Assembly: GCA_017619935.1 (NCBI GenBank) | Contig: JAFZRJ010000020.1 | Coordinates: forward strand, 2,633 to 66,632 | Reading direction: 5' to 3' | From: Muribaculaceae bacterium | GTDB lineage: Bacteria > Bacteroidota > Bacteroidia > Bacteroidales > Muribaculaceae | Length of the DNA: 64,000 nt | Shown: positions 924 to 55,511 of the stretch, piece by piece | Layout: each line of letters starts with the position of its first letter | How positions within the stretch are numbered: the stretch's first letter is position 1 | Notes under the pieces: model-generated | Told to the model about the DNA's origin: nothing | Databases searched by the model: none | Seen by the model: only the letters and a program-made list of their open reading frames with translations | Made by a program: the position numbers and the translations under genes

Positions 924-1204
924 GTGTGTCGAAGACGCGCACGGCCTCGTTGAGGCCGCTCATATTAAAGACCATGCAAGCAACATCGAAGATGTGCGCC
1001 GCTTGGTCACAAGCCACGACTCAGGGCGGTGCGTCGAAGACGAACTTCTGCGTCGTCTTTGGCGCTGCAGGCTCCGGTTGAAGTTTCTCTCCGAGGCACC
1101 TGTTTGCTTGTCCGTCATGGACCAAGCAGCGAGGCCCTCCGGCCCTCTCGCATGGTCCTTAACATGATAAGCCCCTCCGGGGCATTTAACGTCTTCGATG
1201 TCGC
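924..1204 (-). repeat. GNA-triloop hairpin doublet element, copy 1 (reverse orientation, diverged)
   Basis: 1000-1068 is the near-exact reverse complement of about 47135-47203. The flanking hairpins and the GACCATGC/GCTTGGTC motifs are conserved. Confidence 0.9.
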
Positions 1205-34649: not shown

Positions 34650-34832
34650 AACAACATTCTCCTAATTTTTGGTGTGAAATTTGTTCCTTGATGGCTCCAT
34701 CAAGCCAAAAAAGTAGGAAAAACCCGTTAAGAACCCTAAATTTTACTGCTTAACACAAAATGAATGTTAAAAAAATGCGATTTCGTGCTCAAAAATTATG
34801 TTGTATAACATATCGGCACTAATTTTGCATCG

Positions 34833-34984
34833 GTTTTTCATGGTATTAGTTTTTAAGGTTGTGAAAATCCAGTCGTCGTGATGACGATTGCGTATTTTCA
34901 AGTTTGTATTAAGGTTTATGTTAATGGTATTAGAAGGTTAATTAGTTAAGCAATCCCCGACGTTGATGTCGAGGATTTTTTTTG
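34833..34984 (+). ncRNA. Candidate small RNA(s), two tandem units
   Basis: Promoter TAATTTTG at 34820 with no ORF downstream. Two ATGGTATTAG...AAGGTT units, each followed by a hairpin; the second is a T-tailed terminator. Confidence 0.5.
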
Positions 34985-43377: not shown

Positions 43378-45039
43378 TTAGTGACTATATAAATATCGTT
43401 TGATACTGCGCTTGGGCGTCTTCTCAAACTCGTTGGCAATGAGCTGGATTTTGGCGATGCGCTCGTAGGGAGCTACCAGTTTGTTAAGCTCGTTGCGGAC
43501 GTTTTCCATGAGCTCGGGCAACTGTTCGGGTGTCACGCCCAGCTGGTCCATGACCTCGTAGTCGGGATAGACGAGTGCCACAAGTTTGCCCTCGCGTTCC
43601 ACCACCAAGCTCTCGCTCACATAGAGCATATTGTTGAGTTTGGCCTCGATTTCTTCGGGATAAATGTTCTGTCCACTGCTGCCAAGCAGCATGGTCTTGA
43701 GTCGGCCGCGGATGAAGATGGTGCCGTCGGGGCTCATCGTGCCCATGTCGCCGGTGTGTAGCCATCCCTCTTCATCAATCACTTTCTTGGTGGCATCTTC
43801 GTTGTGGTAGTAGCCAATCATGGCGTTCTCGCCGCGTACGCAGATTTCGCCCGGGGTGTTCTCGGGGTCTTCGCTCAGAATCTTGCATTTCATGATTCCC
43901 GGCAGAATGCGGCCAGAACTGCGGGGAACGAACTCGCGCCAGGGAGCATAAGACACCAGTGGCGCGCACTCGGTCATGCCGTAGCCCACGGTGAACGGGA
44001 ACTTGATTTTATGGAGGAACGCCTCCACCTCGTCGTTGAGCGCCGCTCCACCGATAATCACTTCTTCGAACTCGCCGCCAAAAGCCTCAACAAGTTTCTT
44101 GCGGATGCGTGAATAAATCTGACTGTCAAGGAAGGGAACGGCAAGCGCCCATCGCAACATGCCCTGACTGATCAGTGGCACAATCATCTTGTTGTAGATT
44201 TTCTCCAAAATCAGTGGCACGCACAGCACGAGGTTGGGCTTGACGTCGGCCAAAGCCTGAAGCAGGATTTTGGGCGAGGGCATACGTCCCAGCAGCGTGA
44301 TGTGTGATCCGGCTGCCAGCGGTGTGAGCATGTCGAACATGCAGCCATAAGTATGAGCGAGCGGCAGGAACGAGAGTGAGCGCGATTGGCGGTAAAAGAT
44401 TCCGCTGTTGATGGCAAAGACGATGTTGCCCGCCAGGTTGTTGTTGGTAATCATCACGCCCTTACTGAACCCCGTGGTGCCGCTGGTGTAGTTGATGACC
44501 AGCATGGCGTCGTTGGGCACGTCGGCGAAGCGGACGTCGTTGCGGTAGAAACCGTCCTTGTATCGCTCGTTGAAAGATGCCTCCAAGTGGGAGATTTCCA
44601 GACTCACGCTGTCGGGTTGTTTCTCAGCCACCACTTTTGACTCGTCGGTCAGCAGCACGGCGCGCACGTTGAATAATTGCTCGAAATCGAGCGTGTCCCA
44701 AATCGACCTGGTTGTGAACAGCATGATGCTCTCGCTGTGGTTGACGATGTGCTGCACGTCGGCGGGATTGAAATCTTGCAGGATGGGCACAATCACCGCA
44801 CCGTAGGTGATGGTGGCGATGAACACGGTGACCCATTCGTGCGTGTTCTTGCCGATGAGGGCGATGTGGTCGCCGGGCTTGATGCCGCAACGCTCATACA
44901 GCAGGTGCAGGCGGGCAATGTTTTCGGCAAATGCGCCATAAGTGAGCGTTTCCTTGGTCCCGTAGTCACTCAAGGCGGGCAAGTCCCAGTTATCAATGAA
45001 GCTCTTCTCGAGCATCTTGATAGTATTTTCTTTCATCAT
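43378..45039 (-). CDS. Long-chain fatty acid--CoA ligase (paralog 2)
   Basis: YTSGTTGFSKG, GYGMTE, WLHTGD and GQNIYPEEIE. Confidence 0.92.
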   Translation of the reverse strand: MMKENTIKMLEKSFIDNWDLPALSDYGTKETLTYGAFAENIARLHLLYERCGIKPGDHIALIGKNTHEWVTVFIATITYGAVIVPILQDFNPADVQHIVNHSESIMLFTTRSIWDTLDFEQLFNVRAVLLTDESKVVAEKQPDSVSLEISHLEASFNERYKDGFYRNDVRFADVPNDAMLVINYTSGTTGFSKGVMITNNNLAGNIVFAINSGIFYRQSRSLSFLPLAHTYGCMFDMLTPLAAGSHITLLGRMPSPKILLQALADVKPNLVLCVPLILEKIYNKMIVPLISQGMLRWALAVPFLDSQIYSRIRKKLVEAFGGEFEEVIIGGAALNDEVEAFLHKIKFPFTVGYGMTECAPLVSYAPWREFVPRSSGRILPGIMKCKILSEDPENTPGEICVRGENAMIGYYHNEDATKKVIDEEGWLHTGDMGTMSPDGTIFIRGRLKTMLLGSSGQNIYPEEIEAKLNNMLYVSESLVVEREGKLVALVYPDYEVMDQLGVTPEQLPELMENVRNELNKLVAPYERIAKIQLIANEFEKTPKRSIKRYLYSH

Positions 45040-45094
45040 GATGTCAGCAGTCGTTAAATTCTCGGGGTGTCAATGAAGTTGATGTTGCAATGTG

Positions 45095-46756
45095 TCAGTT
45101 GCTGTACAGATATCGCTTGATGCTACGCTTGGGCGTCTTCTCAAACTCGGTGGCGATGAGCTGGATTTTGGCGATACGCTCGTAGGGGGCTACCAGTTTG
45201 TTAAGCTCAACGCGGATGTTCTCCATAAGTTCGGGGAGTTGTTCGCGTGTTACGCCCAACTGGTCCATGGCCTCGTAGTCGGGATAGACGAGTCCCACTA
45301 GTTTGCCGTCCCGTTCCACAACCAGGCTCTCGCTCACGAAGAGCATATTGTTAAGTTTGGCTTCAATTTCTTCGGGGTAGATATTCTGGCCACTGCTGCC
45401 CAGCAGCATGGTCTTGAGTCGGCCACGGATGAAGATGGTGCCGTCGGCACTCAGGGTACCCATGTCGCCAGTGTGCAACCATCCGTCTTCGTGCAGCACC
45501 TTGTCGGTAGCCTCGCTATTGTGGAAGTAGCCGCTCATCACGTTTTCGCCGCGCACGCAGATTTCACCCGGGACATTCTCGGGGTCATCGCTCAGAATCT
45601 TACATTCCATGATGCCCGGCAAGATACGGCCCGAACTGTGTGGCACGAACTCGCGCCAGGGTGTGTGCGAAACCAGTGGCGCGCACTCGGTCATGCCATA
45701 GCCCACGGTGAACGGGAATTTGATTTTGTATAGGAAATCTTCCACCTCGGAGTTGAGCGCGGCTCCACCCACAATCACCTCCTCAAACTCGCCGCCGAAG
45801 GCCTCGATGAGTCTCTGTCGGATGCGGGCGTAGATGCGGTTGTCGAGGTAGGGTACGGCAAGCGCCCATCGCAACATGCCCTGACTGATCATGGGCACAA
45901 TCATCTTGCTGTAGATTTTTTCCAGAATGAGCGGCACGCAGATGACCAGGTTGGGCTTGATTTCGGCCAAGGCTTTGATGAGAATCTTGGGCGAAGGGAT
46001 GCGTCCCAGCAACGTGAGGTGTGCTCCCACGGCCAGCGGCGTGAGCATGTCAAACGCGCAGCCATAGGCGTGTGCCAGCGGAAGGAACGACAGCACCCGC
46101 GTGCCCTGGCTGTGCAATCCGGAGTTGATACCATAGACGATGTTGCCCGCCAGGTTGTTGCCGGTAATCATCACGCCCTTGCTGAATCCCGTGGTGCCGC
46201 TGGTGTAGTTGATGACCATCAAGGCTTCGTTGGGCACGTTGGGATAATGAATCTCGTTGCGGTAGAATCCGCTCTTGTATCGCTCGGCGAAGGCCGCTGG
46301 TAAGTCATAGAGCACCTTGCTCACCTCGCCCGCCACCTTCTCGGCAACGACTTGGCGCTCCTCGGTGAGCATCACCGCGCGCAGGCGGTGCAACTGGTCG
46401 AAATCGAGGGTGTCCCAGATGGCTTTGCCGGCAAAGAGCATGACGCTCTCGCTGTGGTTGATGATGTGCTGTACGTCGGTGGGGTTGAACTCTTGCAGGA
46501 TAGGCACAATCACGGCACCATAGGTGATGGTGCCCATGAAAATGGTGACCCATGAAGGCGTGTTCTTGCCGATGAGGGCGATATGGTCGCCGGGCTTGAT
46601 GCCGCAGCGCTCATAGAACAAGTGCAGACGAGCAATGTTTTCAGCAAATTCGCCATAGGTGAGTGTCTGGTTCGTGTTGTAGTCACTCAGGGCTGGCAAC
46701 TCCCAATTATCGATGAAACTCTTTTCAAAGATCTTGATTGTATTCTCTTTCATCAT
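45095..46756 (-). CDS. Long-chain fatty acid--CoA ligase (paralog 1)
   Basis: Same AMP-binding motifs and same 553-aa length as its neighbour. Confidence 0.92.
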   Translation of the reverse strand: MMKENTIKIFEKSFIDNWELPALSDYNTNQTLTYGEFAENIARLHLFYERCGIKPGDHIALIGKNTPSWVTIFMGTITYGAVIVPILQEFNPTDVQHIINHSESVMLFAGKAIWDTLDFDQLHRLRAVMLTEERQVVAEKVAGEVSKVLYDLPAAFAERYKSGFYRNEIHYPNVPNEALMVINYTSGTTGFSKGVMITGNNLAGNIVYGINSGLHSQGTRVLSFLPLAHAYGCAFDMLTPLAVGAHLTLLGRIPSPKILIKALAEIKPNLVICVPLILEKIYSKMIVPMISQGMLRWALAVPYLDNRIYARIRQRLIEAFGGEFEEVIVGGAALNSEVEDFLYKIKFPFTVGYGMTECAPLVSHTPWREFVPHSSGRILPGIMECKILSDDPENVPGEICVRGENVMSGYFHNSEATDKVLHEDGWLHTGDMGTLSADGTIFIRGRLKTMLLGSSGQNIYPEEIEAKLNNMLFVSESLVVERDGKLVGLVYPDYEAMDQLGVTREQLPELMENIRVELNKLVAPYERIAKIQLIATEFEKTPKRSIKRYLYSN

Positions 46757-46777: not shown

Positions 46778-46930
46778 GTGCAAAATTACTGCAAGCCGAG
46801 CGAAATACAAAATGAAAGCCGAAGTTTTTCATTTTTATTTCAGAGGCGCAGCGTAATTTGGCGACTTTGTCGCAACATTACTGCAGAACGAGCGAAATAC
46901 AAAATGAAAGCCGAAGTTTTTCATTTTTAT
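46778..46930 (-). repeat. Promoter-bearing palindromic repeat (family 2)
   Basis: 42-bp direct repeats at 46797-46838 and 46889-46930, plus a partial third at 47320-47350. Homologous to the reverse complement of 55324-55487. Ends in CAAAATTA, a -7 element pointing at the fadD gene. Confidence 0.8.
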
Positions 46931-46999: not shown

Positions 47000-47278
47000 T
47001 GCGTCGAAGACGCAGAATGCTTCGGAGAAGCTATTTGTCGGAAAGACCATGCAAGAGGGTCGAAGACTCTCGCAGCTTGGTCCTTGCCCTATCTAATGAA
47101 AATGTGCCTCGGAGAGGAACTTCAACCAGTACACGCAGCGCCAAAGACAACGCAGAAGTTCGTCTTCGACGCACCGCCCTGAGTCGTGGCTTGTGACCAA
47201 GCGTCGCACCCTTACTGGGTGCTCGCATGGTTTTTAACACGATGTCGGGCCTTCGACCCGCCCAGCATCTTCGATGCT
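47000..47278 (+). repeat. GNA-triloop hairpin doublet element, copy 2 (complete)
   Basis: Near-identical to 55123-55317 and to the reverse complement of 924-1204; consists of two inverted units. Confidence 0.9.
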
Positions 47279-47492
47279 TCACCACCTAATACTTTTGCGT
47301 GTCCCATTGTGGAAATAGGAATGAAAGCCGAAGTTTTTCATTTTTATTTCCTTATGTATTTATTATTAAGTAGGAACGCGTGCGCGCGTAGTGGCTACGG
47401 TCGCAAGTGGCGTGTACGGCCGAAAAAGGGCTGGGAAAAGAAGAAAAATAATTTTTTTTCCGCTTTTCTCTTGTCAGTTCAAAAATTAGTAG

Positions 47493-47527: not shown

Positions 47528-47603
47528 GACTCCGTAGCTCAGCTGGTAGAGCAATTGACTCTTAATCAATGGGTCGTGGGTTCGAGTCCCACCGGGGTCA
47601 CCA
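47528..47603 (+). tRNA. tRNA-Lys (CTT)
   Basis: Acceptor GACTCCG/CGGGGTC, D-arm AGCTCAGCTGGTAGAGC, anticodon arm TTGA-CTCTTAA-TCAA, TTCGAG T-loop and encoded CCA. Confidence 0.96.
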
Positions 47604-47610
47604 CCTATTT

Positions 47611-47692
47611 GCCCAGGTGGCGGAATTGGTAGACGCGCACGTTTCAGGTGCGTGTGCCGCAAGGTGTGAAGGTTCGAGTCCTTTCCTGGGCA
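47611..47692 (+). tRNA. tRNA-Leu (CAG)
   Basis: Acceptor GCCCAGG/CCTGGGC, GGCGGAATTGGTAGAC D-arm, anticodon CACGT-TTCAGGT-GCGTG and a long variable arm. CCA is not encoded. Confidence 0.95.
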
Positions 47693-52493: not shown

Positions 52494-54890
52494 CTATTGG
52501 GTGAGGATGATGTTGATGATGGCGTTCACGTCTTCGATGTCCACCTTGTTGTCGCCAGTGAGGTCGGCATTGCCGGGATAGTCGGTGCGCTGCTTCATAT
52601 CGAGGATGATGTTGATGGTGGCGTTCACGTCCTCGATGTCCACCTTGCTGTCACCGGTCACGTCGCCACGTATTGCGCTGGGGTTGAGTTCCTCCCATCC
52701 ACCGTTATAGTACTTGTATAGATGCCAGTTCTTGCCTTGCGCAAGGCGGATTTGCTCGTCGGTGATAGCGTTGCCCTCGTTAGTGTTGTCCTGGTTGAAC
52801 ACCTGGAATTTAGCCGTGACACCCGACGGGACTCTGTACATGCTATTGATGAGCGAGGTCAGCGCCTCACCCTTGATTTGGTTGGTAGTGATGTTAAACT
52901 GGGTGCTTAATGCGGTGCACCCTTGAACCGAAAGCGAGGTCAGTTTGTTGTTTGCGCAAGTGAAATTCTTTAACTTCGTGAGGCCTTGCACATTGAGCGA
53001 GACCAACTCATTGCTTGGGCACTTCAGCTCTTCCAGATTGCTGTTGGCCGACACGTCGAGCGAGGTCAGCTGGTTGGAGGAGCAGTCAAGGCTGGTCAGC
53101 GCCGTACAACCCGAGATGCCGAGGCTTATCAAGGCGTTGCTGCTGCAATGGAGCGTAGTCATGCTGGTGTTGTTTCTCACATTGAGCGACTTGAGCGCGC
53201 TGCGGCCGGTAATGGTTAACGATGTGAACTTGTTACTCGAACAGTCGATGGTCTGCAGCTGCGATGCGGGCAGTGCCAGCGAGGTCAACTGGTTACTGTG
53301 GCAATCGAGTGTGGTCAGGGCCGAGCAACTATTCATGTTGAGCGAGGTCAGCGCATTGCTGTAGCAGTAGAGTTGGGTCAGACTGGCGTTGTTGCTCACA
53401 TTGAGCGACTTGAGTGCGCTGCGGCCGGTGAGGCTCAACATGCCGCTGAGCTTGTTGCTCGAGCAGTCAATGGTCTGCAGCGATGTGGGCAGTGTGCCGA
53501 GCGAGGTCAACTGGTTGGACTTGCAATCGAGCGTAGTCAGAGCCGAGCAGCCAGTGACGTTGAGCGTGGTCAGGGCATTGCCGCTGCAAGTGAGCGAGGT
53601 GAGCAAATTGCTGCTGTTCACGTCGAGTAGCTGCAGATTGCTACGGCCGGTGATGCTCAGTGTGGTGAACTTGTTGGCGCCTATGGCCAGCGACTTCACC
53701 GAGGTGGGCAGCGACGGCAGCGAGGTGAGCTGGTTGCCGTAACAGTTGAGTGTGGTCAAGGCTGTGCAGCCGCTCACGTCAAGCGAGGTCAGAGCGTTAC
53801 TGGTGCAGTAGAGCGTGGTCAGGCCGGTGTTGTTGCTCACATTGAGCGACTTGAGTGCGCTGCGGTTATTCAGGACCAGTGTGCCGCTGAACTTATTGCT
53901 TGAGCAGTTGATGGTCTGCAGCGTACTGGGCAGGTCGCGCAGCGTGGTGAGGTTGTTGTTATGGCAATACAGCTCGATGAGCTTATTGAAGTACTCCACA
54001 CCCGTGAGACTGGAGATGCTGTTGCCGTTGCAGTAGAGTGCGGTGCGGCTGTCCACATCGCTTTGGGTGATGTAGCCCTTGGAGTAGGAATTGAGCATCC
54101 ATTGGCGGAAGTTGGCATCGGGGAAGTTGGTGGAGTTGATCATCGCCACATAGTTGTCGCTGATGTAGATGTCCTTGTCCTTAATGACGGAGCCCGAAGA
54201 ATTATAAATGGTGTTGTTGCTGTAATAGGCTCCGTAGGGCGAAAGGATGGCCTCTTTGCCAGAGAATGACATCGACACGTCGCTCACGTTGGGATCCGAC
54301 CCGTTGCTTCTGATTGTCAGGTCGCCACCTTGAAAATAGGCTGAAAACGAACTCAAAGCAGACCTGCTGGGGCTAATGGCCCACACTTTCGGTCCCCGGA
54401 AATACACTTTGGTGGAACTTATACCGTTACCCTTGATGGCTTCGTAGGCATCTTTATAAGTTTGAATTACTAGTTCACCATCGCCCTCGAAATAGTAATT
54501 GTAGCTTTTCAGATTGACAGCAATTCTGGCAGCTGAAATTAAATCTACAGATCCTGAGGTCACCTTGATTGTTGTGCTTCGCATAAGCTTCAGCGCATTG
54601 TCTGAAGCTGCAATTGTACCGCCCCCACTGAAAACTATCGTCAGGTTGTCACATCCCCTGTTGTGGATGCCATAGTTGTCTTGGCCACTTCGTCTAATGG
54701 AAATGTTGTAGAGGGTCAAGGTGTTGGTGCTTTCGTTGTACACGCCATAGCCGCTCGTGATGTCGCCGCCGGTGATATGGCTGGCGTTGCTGCTGGTGAC
54801 TTCCACACCTCCGACGTTGATTTCGGGGTCGGCCTGGGAACTGAGTGCCGCCATGGCAACCATCAGCATGAGTAGTAATGATTTTTTCAT
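52494..54890 (-). CDS. Leucine-rich repeat surface protein with C-terminal dockerin
   Basis: Signal peptide, FPDANFR cap, many LxxLxCxxNxLTSL repeats, and duplicated GDVTGDSKVDIEDVN / ADLTGDNKVDIEDVN. Confidence 0.9.
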   Translation of the reverse strand: MKKSLLLMLMVAMAALSSQADPEINVGGVEVTSSNASHITGGDITSGYGVYNESTNTLTLYNISIRRSGQDNYGIHNRGCDNLTIVFSGGGTIAASDNALKLMRSTTIKVTSGSVDLISAARIAVNLKSYNYYFEGDGELVIQTYKDAYEAIKGNGISSTKVYFRGPKVWAISPSRSALSSFSAYFQGGDLTIRSNGSDPNVSDVSMSFSGKEAILSPYGAYYSNNTIYNSSGSVIKDKDIYISDNYVAMINSTNFPDANFRQWMLNSYSKGYITQSDVDSRTALYCNGNSISSLTGVEYFNKLIELYCHNNNLTTLRDLPSTLQTINCSSNKFSGTLVLNNRSALKSLNVSNNTGLTTLYCTSNALTSLDVSGCTALTTLNCYGNQLTSLPSLPTSVKSLAIGANKFTTLSITGRSNLQLLDVNSSNLLTSLTCSGNALTTLNVTGCSALTTLDCKSNQLTSLGTLPTSLQTIDCSSNKLSGMLSLTGRSALKSLNVSNNASLTQLYCYSNALTSLNMNSCSALTTLDCHSNQLTSLALPASQLQTIDCSSNKFTSLTITGRSALKSLNVRNNTSMTTLHCSSNALISLGISGCTALTSLDCSSNQLTSLDVSANSNLEELKCPSNELVSLNVQGLTKLKNFTCANNKLTSLSVQGCTALSTQFNITTNQIKGEALTSLINSMYRVPSGVTAKFQVFNQDNTNEGNAITDEQIRLAQGKNWHLYKYYNGGWEELNPSAIRGDVTGDSKVDIEDVNATINIILDMKQRTDYPGNADLTGDNKVDIEDVNAIINIILTQ

Positions 54891-55122
54891 AGTGATTCTA
54901 TTTTAATTTATATTATAATTCAGGTTGATAATGATTCGATGGGGATACCTTAAAACACCGGAAAGGCGTCGAAACGGCAAACAATTCCCCATCTTGCTGC
55001 AAAGGTAAACAAAATTTTACAATTTACCTCATAATTTTCGCAAAAATTTTCAATTGAAAGTTCGATTTTTAATAGGGAGGTGTCTGTCTGCGACTAACAG
55101 AAGGAGAATTGTTTTGGCGTGT

Positions 55123-55317
55123 TGCGTCGAAGACGCAGAATGCTTCGGAGAAGCTAATTGTCGGAAAGACCATGCAAGAGGGTCGAAGACTCTCGCAGCT
55201 TGGTCCTTGCGCTATCTAATGAAAATGTGCCTCGGAGAGGAACTTCAACCAGTACACGCAGCGCCAAAGACAACGTGGAAGTTCGTCTTCGACGCACCGC
55301 CCAGCATCTTCGATGCT
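55123..55317 (+). repeat. GNA-triloop hairpin doublet element, copy 3 (84-bp internal deletion)
   Basis: Matches copy 2 except for loss of the segment between the CCGCCC microhomologies (47174 and 47258 in copy 2). Confidence 0.9.
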
Positions 55318-55323
55318 TCGCCT

Positions 55324-55487
55324 CCAAATTAGGTTTCGGCTCGGAAAAATTCAAACAAGTTTGGTTTTTCGCTCGCCTTGCACTAATTTTGAGGTTTAAA
55401 CCTCGAAATTAGGCTGCGTCTCGGCAATAAAAGAGAAAAACTTCGTCTTTCTCTTTGTATTGCACTCAACTTAAACTAATTTTGCAC
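55324..55487 (+). repeat. Promoter-bearing palindromic repeat (family 2), second locus
   Basis: Its reverse complement aligns with 46778-46930. TAATTTTG at 55477 points at the L,D-transpeptidase gene. Confidence 0.75.
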
Positions 55488-55511
55488 TGGAAATAAAAAC
55501 GAAAAGAGAAT

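What the first reader, a model, noticed from the sequence alone, without database searches (positions are those of the whole stretch)
47000..47278. Dispersed ~280-bp element of two inverted multi-hairpin units with C-GNA-G triloops, probably a ssDNA-structured mobile element
Seen: each ~125-nt half, read inward from its own end, has the same order: hairpin 1 (GCGTC-GAA-GACGC / GCATC-GAA-GATGC), hairpin 2 (GCTTC-GGA-GAAGC / GGGTC-GAA-GGCCC), AA(G/A)ACCATGC-[hairpin 3]-GCTTGGTC (a stem with a fixed T.T mismatch), a ~20-nt spacer, then GTGC(C/G)TC-GNA-GA(G/C)GAACTTC. The halves differ in stem sequence but share motifs. There are three intergenic copies in 64 kb (924, 47000, 55123). Established: d(C-GNA-G) triloops are exceptionally stable in DNA rather than RNA, and inverted REP doublets (REPINs) are mobilised by HUH/RAYT enzymes. 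Inference: a non-autonomous element recognised as folded ssDNA on both strands, more elaborate than the REPINs I know. The partner enzyme is not in this window.
Basis: partly seen in the sequence, partly recalled or inferred. Interest (0 to 1): 0.8.

Follow-up and report, generated by a model that had tools for sequence, protein, structure and literature searches.

The report
Gene-less DNA arms of a transposase
This 280-base repeat is a head-to-head pair of the same hairpin-rich DNA arms that enclose a small single-strand-DNA transposase gene elsewhere in this gut bacterium's genome; the enzyme likely recognises the arms as folded DNA, and in related species the pairs sit inside small elements likely moved by unrelated transposases, so an enzyme group published as having no partner repeats has elaborate ones.

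Summary
The element is real. Each ~123-nt half is an arm of four hairpins. The same arms, inverted, directly enclose a 147-aa Y1 HUH transposase gene with the marks of TnpA-Y1 subclass 1.2, present twice elsewhere in this genome. The window element is the gene-less doublet; the genome holds 12. Arms flank 77 of 82 sides of 41 cognate genes in the genus, covary in 18 of 30 pairs and track the protein's sequence. Their loops read G..A in 362 of 424 cases on each arm's own strand, which points to folded single-stranded DNA. Quentin 2018 lists subclass 1.2 as having no REP. The window copies have no such pair and have ragged ends; Y1-driven movement is likely for them but not shown. One of the three window copies is deleted. 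The scan reported this system before on another genome (e1-5225596). Verdict: new variant of REPtron/TIRtron-REPIN systems; interest 0.5.

The parts
47001..47013 (+). Left arm hairpin 1 (GNA triloop); outer limit of arm conservation
   Evidence: conservation between distant cassettes ends at the foot of hp1
47019..47031 (+). Left arm hairpin 2 (GGA triloop)
   Evidence: 5 of 5 pairs covary
47045..47082 (+). Left arm long stem with T.T mismatch, 2x3 internal loop and hairpin 3
47104..47123 (+). Left arm inner hairpin with G.A mismatch, about 20 nt after the long stem; most conserved part
47124..47154 (.). 31-nt linker standing where the autonomous cassette has promoter and tnpA
47155..47277 (-). 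Right arm (inner hairpin 47155-47174, long stem 47195-47232, hp2 47247-47259, hp1 47265-47277); 103 of 115 nt identical to the upstream arm of the genome's own tnpA at C30
47278..47315 (.). Tail shared by five copies in the genome; holds one degenerate terminal-repeat-like motif (TIR2) at 47293-47305 with no partner on the left
47320..47347 (+). 28-bp direct repeat also at 46903-46930 and 46811-46838, found nowhere else in the genome at up to 2 mismatches; local duplication across the element
926..1203 (.). Second full doublet, opposite orientation, different subfamily, next to another Y1-type repeat at ~800-905
55124..55319 (+). Third copy, 97% identical to the 47000 copy over 196 nt, right arm internally deleted

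Best explanation
The element is a gene-less doublet of the two inverted arms that enclose a Y1 HUH transposase gene (TnpA-Y1 subclass 1.2 type) in the same genome, and each arm likely folds as single-stranded DNA on its own strand into the site that this enzyme would bind and nick. Shown: arms enclose the gene, arms and enzyme vary together, the stems covary, loops and wobbles favour each arm's inward strand, and doublet linkers in one relative keep the last codons of tnpA, so doublets arise by internal deletion of the cassette. Shown for relatives: many doublets, and some whole cassettes, lie between terminal inverted repeats of DDE insertion sequences, often with 8-9-bp duplications. Inferred: doublets spread by two routes, (1) Y1 nicking and strand transfer at variable positions outside the arms, as for BIME/REPIN, which would explain the ragged, chimeric, duplication-free junctions of this genome's copies, and (2) hitch-hiking inside DDE MITE shells. 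For the window copies route 1 is the likelier last step, from an ancestor that once sat in a TIR2 shell.
For: Arms enclose tnpA at G000 C30:106894 and C24:125143. Inner motif on 77 of 82 flanks of 41 cognate loci; the 5 misses are 4 contig ends and one 5'-broken gene. Inverted arms at 53 of 54 Y1 loci with full flanks, down to 35% protein identity; protein versus cross-arm similarity Spearman 0.83 (kin are not independent). Three or more arms in 21 of 23 genomes with the cognate gene versus 12 of 57 without, own genome left out. HUH and Y---Q--HH intact in 33 of 33; median dN/dS 0.05 over 32 pairs. 18 of 30 pairs change on both sides, 96.5% of cells paired, 0 of 500 shuffles. Loops G..A 362 versus T..C 3 of 424; G.T 58 versus A.C 9 on the inward strand; inward strand folds better in 66 of 73 arms. 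d(GNA) loops with a C:G closing pair are very stable in DNA (PMC3201870, abstract). G005 linkers retain both inner flanks and the tnpA 3' end. Own-genome copies: no paired TIR in 9 classed doublets, left junctions differ and fuse to other repeat units; the 47000 copy is a chimera, left arm 113/123 to another clade's arm, right arm 103/115 to the local one. TIR shells.
Against: No binding or cleavage was tested. No empty site with Y1-type junctions was obtained: the only clean empty sites (2 of 8 comparisons) show DDE signatures. 30 of 81 doublets have both TIRs and a further 33 single-TIR matches were counted (loose patterns, selected genomes), so DDE hitch-hiking may explain most spread. 12 of 57 genomes without a detected cognate gene still hold 3 or more arms (assemblies incomplete). 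No conserved guide or target tetranucleotide was identified. P0001 falls just under the IS200 cut-off and subclass 1.2 was assigned by motifs, not by the authors' profile.
Confidence: 0.62

Rival explanations
1. The arms are Y1 sites, but doublets are passive deletion relics: they are copied only as cargo of DDE MITEs and by recombination among repeats, and the Y1 enzyme does not mobilise them.
For: Both clean empty sites show 381-382-bp inserts with TIRs and 9-10-bp duplications. The same TIR ends autonomous 1.39-1.40-kb elements with DDE_Tnp_1 + DUF4372 transposases. Duplications of 8 bp or more at 12 of 30 TIR-bounded doublets versus 7 of 1203 controls. The shells also carry unrelated cargo. 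The 47000 copy keeps a TIR2 relic.
Against: Own-genome copies lack paired TIRs and share 10 nt beyond the relic, so they spread after a shell was broken. TIR1 has 0 exact hits and DDE_Tnp_1 was not found in this genome (66% complete). In two shells hp1 starts within a few bases of the TIR, and capture by three different shells is easier if doublets also move by themselves (inference).
Confidence: 0.28
2. The cassette is an ordinary IS200-type element with left and right ends read on one strand (peel and paste), and doublets are its MITE-like derivatives.
For: Closest solved relatives are IS200-type transposases; whole cassettes occur at two loci within a genome (99.8% over 617 bp, G064) and 98.6% identical in two species.
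Against: The two arms are mirror images, and G..A loops and G.T wobbles fall on opposite strands, whereas IS200 ends work on one strand (PMC8266576, introduction). Arms are ~123 nt, not 20-25 nt. Sixteen genomes keep the gene at one syntenic site. Some cassette moves are explained by a TIR2 shell with 8-bp duplication.
Confidence: 0.05
3. The arms are a structured RNA (sRNA, leader or terminator).
For: The RNA fold is also significant; covariation and G.T wobbles cannot tell RNA from DNA.
Against: No Rfam match at E up to 1. One transcript would read only one arm in the conserved sense. The variable middle base of G-N-A fits the DNA triloop rule. The upstream arm ends about 66-74 nt before the start codon with a Bacteroidota-type promoter motif in between (motif recalled), so it is probably not in the tnpA message.
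Confidence: 0.05

Closest known systems
TnpA-Y1 subclass 1.2 (Quentin, Siguier, Chandler, Fichant 2018, PMC6006769)
   Same: 147 aa (median 148), H-I-H, conserved W, Y---Q--HH, short C-terminal tail, low copy number, Bacteroidota-type host.
   Different: [quoted passage not shown] Residues differ from the consensus (NHIH for DH[IV]H, WG for WQ).
REPtron / BIME / REPIN with TnpA-REP (RAYT) (PMC3333891, PMC8266576, bioRxiv 10.1101/2021.07.10.451892)
   Same: Y1 gene flanked by its cognate palindromes; dispersed inverted doublets in intergenic space; chimeric and tandem units; a conserved stem mismatch; one clade inherited at a fixed locus.
   Different: Arm is ~123 nt with four hairpins, not a 20-50-nt hairpin; no GTAG foot; enzyme is class 1 (IS200-near), not class 2; tens of copies, not hundreds; the whole cassette also moves.
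TIRtrons / TIRYT (Di Nocera, De Gregorio, Rocco 2013, PMC3733652)
   Same: Y1 gene flanked by long inverted repeats, partly self-complementary, which form dimers or clusters elsewhere in the genome.
   Different: TIRYTs map to class 2 (20 of 26 to subclass 2.1 per PMC6006769); the GGGGWSAS motif is not part of the arm; no covarying four-hairpin fold described in the passages seen.
IS200/IS605 TnpA ends (IS608, ISDra2)
   Same: Enzyme core; subterminal imperfect hairpins as likely recognition sites; non-autonomous deletion derivatives.
   Different: Ends are mirror-symmetric and on opposite strands; no fixed target tetranucleotide found; no tnpB.
MITEs of DDE insertion sequences (IS4-type and IS66-type ends)
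   Same: In relatives the doublets are bounded by such TIRs with 8-9-bp duplications.
   Different: The TIRs are an outer shell with varied cargo; the arms themselves are not TIRs of a DDE enzyme, and the window copies lack a TIR pair.

Membership tests
TnpA-Y1 subclass 1.2 (partner enzyme) | Y---Q--HH motif | tested here: met
   YINNQRIHH in P0001; 33 of 33 cognate proteins
TnpA-Y1 subclass 1.2 (partner enzyme) | DH[IV]H and WQ consensus | tested here: inconclusive
   NH[IV]H in 33 of 33; W93 is followed by G
TnpA-Y1 subclass 1.2 (partner enzyme) | About 148 aa, low copy number | tested here: met
   147 aa; 2 copies here; 1-2 in each of 36 of 133 genomes
TnpA-Y1 subclass 1.2 (partner enzyme) | Clusters with the authors' subclass 1.2 sequences or C-terminal HMM | not tested
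   Their sequences and profile were not obtained; supplements were only searched for terms
TnpA-Y1 subclass 1.2 (partner enzyme) | No REP or terminal structure (as published) | tested here: not met
   Inverted arms at 53 of 54 loci
REP/REPIN with RAYT | 5' GTAG/GT[AG]G foot on a 20-50-nt hairpin | tested here: not met
   No such foot in alignment A1 or in the arms listed
REP/REPIN with RAYT | Class 2 enzyme (Y---NP; RAYT model) | tested here: not met
   NF047646 23 bits against cut-off 80
REP/REPIN with RAYT | Inverted doublets dispersed between genes, cognate units flanking the gene | tested here: met
   12 doublets in G000; no long ORF spans any of 17 loci
REP/REPIN with RAYT | Strand-specific ssDNA cleavage by the enzyme | not testable with these tools
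   Needs biochemistry
IS200/IS605 (subclass 1.1) | Distinct left and right ends read on one strand | tested here: not met
   Mirror arms; loop and wobble asymmetry on opposite strands
IS200/IS605 (subclass 1.1) | NCBIfam IS200 model above cut-off | tested here: not met
   51.2 bits against 55
DDE MITE (window copies) | Paired TIRs and fixed short target duplication | tested here: not met
   One degenerate TIR2 only; variable left junctions
DDE MITE (doublets of relatives) | Paired TIRs and fixed short target duplication | tested here: met
   30 of 81 with both TIRs, 12 of 30 with 8 bp or more; two empty sites
Rfam RNA family | Covariance-model match | tested here: not met
   None over the three copies at E up to 1

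The most novel reading that the evidence does not exclude
Subclass 1.2 transposases as a whole are a REPtron-like system on the IS200 side of the family tree: they read a ~123-nt, four-hairpin folded DNA with a ruler-like 20-nt spacer, the most elaborate ssDNA recognition site known to me for a Y1 enzyme, and this genus shows every step of the proposed IS200-to-REPIN path at once (mobile cassette, fixed locus, self-moving doublets), while three unrelated DDE families have repeatedly captured the doublets.
Probability: 0.35. Interest if true: 0.72.

Novelty: new variant of a known kind. Interest (0 to 1): 0.5.

Why it matters
It gives an uncharacterised branch of Y1 HUH enzymes a concrete, covariation-defined DNA substrate, so the enzyme can be assayed directly. 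It contradicts the published 'no REP' entry for subclass 1.2. It offers a natural test of the idea that REPINs arose by fusion of the palindromic ends of an IS200-like element. It also warns that dispersal of REP-like doublets need not be the work of the cognate Y1 enzyme, because here the cleanest insertions carry DDE signatures. The general logic (Y1 gene, flanking palindromes, dispersed doublets) is known, which caps the surprise.

Tried and rejected
1. Long flanking direct repeats as the general insertion signature: rejected. They mark one syntenic cassette site (16-50 bp in the 13 filled alleles measured) and the 47000 copy, but only 5 of 78 doublets have 16 bp or more (control 6 of 6006). 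2. Empty orthologous sites for the window copies in other species: relatives are about 80% identical, too far. 3. Logan contigs: no RNA holder listed. One search gave no clean joint. One search gave one contig (depth 4.2, 38 letters on the short side) joining 55076 to 55320, which skips the third copy and ends at the foot of hp1; it may come from the paralogous locus, so it is a weak hint only. 4. Six of 8 filled/empty comparisons were not clean. 5. No autonomous element found for TIR2 in 133 genus genomes, 401 order genomes or 33 metagenome hits. 6. A guide-target pairing between the AA before the long stem and the TT after the inner hairpin: not supported, the one variant seen (L090) changes TT without changing AA; the TT was also required by my pattern. 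7. A recalled 'STIR / subclass 1.3' label: the term does not occur in the paper. 8. Inner motif in viral contigs: 0; in other genera of the family: 1 of 191 genomes. 9. No structure or complex prediction was run.

Full report
OBSERVATION. The 291-nt stretch folds better than all 200 shuffles on both strands, as DNA (z -3.2 and -3.7) and as RNA (z -5.8 and -4.4). Rfam has no match to any copy at E up to 1. The copy at 926-1203 is inverted and about 79% identical; the copy at 55124-55319 has lost hp2 and the long stem of its right arm. In the own genome (1.86 Mb, 66% complete) the inner motif occurs 31 times: 12 doublets, 2 gene-enclosing pairs and 3 single arms. No long ORF spans any of the 17 loci checked. 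The host is a gut bacterium by the run records and Bacteroidota-like by its genes and promoter motifs (my inference).

THE PARTNER. Two pairs of arms, 550 bp apart, enclose a 147-aa ORF (G000 C30:106894 and C24:125143, 96% identical). It matches Y1_Tnp, has H53-I-H55, W93 and Y113---Q117--HH, and its nearest solved relatives are IS200-type transposases. NCBIfam gives 51 bits for IS200 (cut-off 55) and 23 for RAYT (cut-off 80). These marks fit subclass 1.2 of Quentin et al. 2018 (PMC6006769; I read parts 1-5 of 10 and searched its two supplements for four terms), which the paper lists as having no REP; my term search found no subclass 1.2 row in the REP table. The cognate gene (E up to 1e-54) is in 36 of 133 genus genomes. 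The inner motif lies on 77 of 82 flanks of 41 cognate loci; 4 misses are contig ends and one is a 5'-broken gene. HUH and Y motifs are intact in 33 of 33, and median dN/dS is 0.05 over the 32 unsaturated pairs. Genomes with the gene hold three or more arms in 21 of 23 cases, those without in 12 of 57 (own genome left out; kin are not independent and assemblies are incomplete). More distant Y1 clades have arms of the same plan in other sequences: 53 of 54 loci with full flanks have inverted arms beating 60 shuffles (11 loci with short or masked flanks were left out; two scores are borderline), and protein similarity tracks cross-arm similarity (Spearman 0.83).

DNA FOLD, ONE ARM PER STRAND. On alignment A1 (21 rows, two of them mis-referenced and mostly gaps), 18 of 30 pairs change on both sides, 96.5% of cells pair, and none of 500 shuffles reach this; slid controls pair 36-45%. 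Among 110 distinct arms picked by a motif pattern, the outer stem switches G-C to C-G in 38, the T.T mismatch is kept in 106, the spacer is 18-22 nt, 362 of 424 loops begin with G and end with A against 3 that read T..C, and stems hold 58 G.T against 9 A.C on the inward strand (part of the stem and the terminal bases were fixed by the pattern, the loops were not). The inward strand folds better with DNA parameters in 66 of 73 arms. d(GNA) loops with a C:G closing pair are very stable in DNA (PMC3201870, abstract). Since the two arms face each other, they are structured on opposite strands, as REP and iREP are (PMC8266576, abstract and introduction), not on one strand as IS200 ends are.

ORIGIN OF DOUBLETS. 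In G005 the 82-nt linker starts like the upstream inner flank and ends with the last codons of tnpA, so doublets are internal deletions of the cassette. The 47000 copy is a chimera: left arm 113/123 identical to an arm of another tnpA clade, right arm 103/115 to the local upstream arm.

HOW THE CASSETTE BEHAVES. Sixteen genomes keep it at one syntenic site; elsewhere it is scattered, with near-identical copies at two loci of one genome (99.8% over 617 bp) and in two species (98.6% over 929 bp). At the syntenic site 18 filled and 17 empty alleles are interspersed on a tree of the flanking DNA. Thirteen filled alleles measured carry 16-50-bp duplications of the target (control 0 of 353). This is not general: 5 of 78 doublets have such repeats.

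HOW DOUBLETS MOVE. Six doublets unique to one of three close genomes were compared with the other genomes. Two of 8 comparisons were clean, and both show a 381-382-bp insert bounded by a terminal inverted repeat (TIR1) with a 9-10-bp duplication. The same TIR ends 1.39-1.40-kb elements with DDE_Tnp_1 + DUF4372 transposases (the IS4 label is recalled). A second repeat (TIR2, enzyme not found) bounds doublets and whole cassettes, some with 8-bp duplications, and a third abuts an IS66 transposase at one locus. Of 81 distinct doublets with full flanks, 30 have both TIRs (21, 5, 4), 33 single-TIR matches were counted and 20 have none; 12 of the 30 have duplications of 8 bp or more against 7 of 1203 controls (genomes were chosen for high copy number and the patterns are loose). 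The shells also carry other cargo. The own genome differs: 9 of the 20 TIR-less doublets are its own, TIR1 has 0 exact hits, DDE_Tnp_1 was not found, the 47000 subfamily keeps one degenerate TIR2 plus 10 shared bases beyond it, and left junctions vary and fuse to other repeat units over short shared sequence. That pattern fits cleavage and strand transfer at variable sites, as modelled for BIMEs (PMC3333891, passages), but recombination among repeats would also give it. Contigs of other strains gave one weak joint skipping the third copy.

MECHANISM. Shown: arm-gene association, co-variation, strand asymmetry, deletion origin, DDE shells in relatives. Inferred: the enzyme binds a folded arm on transiently single-stranded DNA, nicks outside it through Y113 and transfers the strand; doublets are kept as pairs because either strand then carries a site; some were later amplified inside DDE MITEs. 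I put the whole at 0.62, passive cargo at 0.28, IS200-type single-strand ends and structured RNA at 0.05 each.

WHAT IS KNOWN. It works like a REPtron with REPINs, or a TIRtron with TIR dimers (PMC3733652, passages), but fails membership of REP/RAYT (no GTAG foot, class 1 enzyme) and of IS200 proper. Bertels and Rainey propose that REPINs arose by fusion of IS200-like ends and state that only RAYT groups 2 and 3 have REPINs (bioRxiv 10.1101/2021.07.10.451892, passages). Eight full-text searches listed no paper describing repeats for subclass 1.2; the library lacks most subscription papers, ISfinder was not searchable, and figures and most supplements were not seen. The scan itself reported this system on another genome (e1-5225596), which I looked up after reaching the same reading; it is an AI note, not independent support. 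Another note describes REP doublets inside a MITE for subclass 2.8 (e1-9957039), seen after my own result and not checked.

VERDICT. Real feature; new variant of a known kind; interest 0.5.

Noticed in passing
G000 C7:90564, C17:23075, C24:128773, C17:67003 (L001, L004, L005, L006): Four more Y1 genes in this genome, the first three with their own inverted arms; the C17:23075 arms have the same hairpin / long stem / spacer / inner hairpin plan in a different sequence; C17:67003 is a longer protein with TIRYT-like flanks.
   Followed up: partly
window ~800-905: A copy of the repeat that flanks the C24:128773 Y1 gene sits directly beside the 926 doublet; the two repeat families are joined or nested at C10, C36, C9 and C24 too.
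   Followed up: partly
G000 C36:41770-41860; L066; L086: Another ~90-nt repeat has inserted at the same point at the base of hairpin 3 in three species, which suggests site-specific targeting of the arm.
   Followed up: no
L010, L067-L083 and empty alleles L111-L152: At one site upstream of a likely sigma-factor gene, 18 filled and 17 empty alleles are interspersed on the host tree. Filled alleles duplicate 16-50 bp of the promoter region, and in 5 of 13 the two copies match each other better than any other genome's: repeated re-insertion or conversion, unexplained.
   Followed up: partly
L485, L499, L072, G005:C73:103785-104606: Whole Y1 cassettes of 850-855 bp lie inside TIR2 shells, two with 8-bp duplications: a transposase gene carried as cargo of another, unidentified transposase's ends.
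   Followed up: partly
window 46780-46930, 47289-47347, 55326-55493: A separate dispersed AT-rich repeat family with a promoter-like motif borders two of the three copies.
   Followed up: no
window 43378-46756: Tandem pair of 553-aa genes, 80-86% identical; the one scanned is an AMP-binding enzyme.
   Followed up: no
window 34831-34901: Sub-threshold match to Bacteroidetes FopS sRNA (39 bits, cut-off 56).
   Followed up: no
window 47528-47692: Two tRNA genes 250 bp right of the element.
   Followed up: no
window 52494-54890: Leucine-rich-repeat protein with a C-terminal dockerin; its upstream region and the third copy have a paralogous locus at C17:20933-21650.
   Followed up: partly
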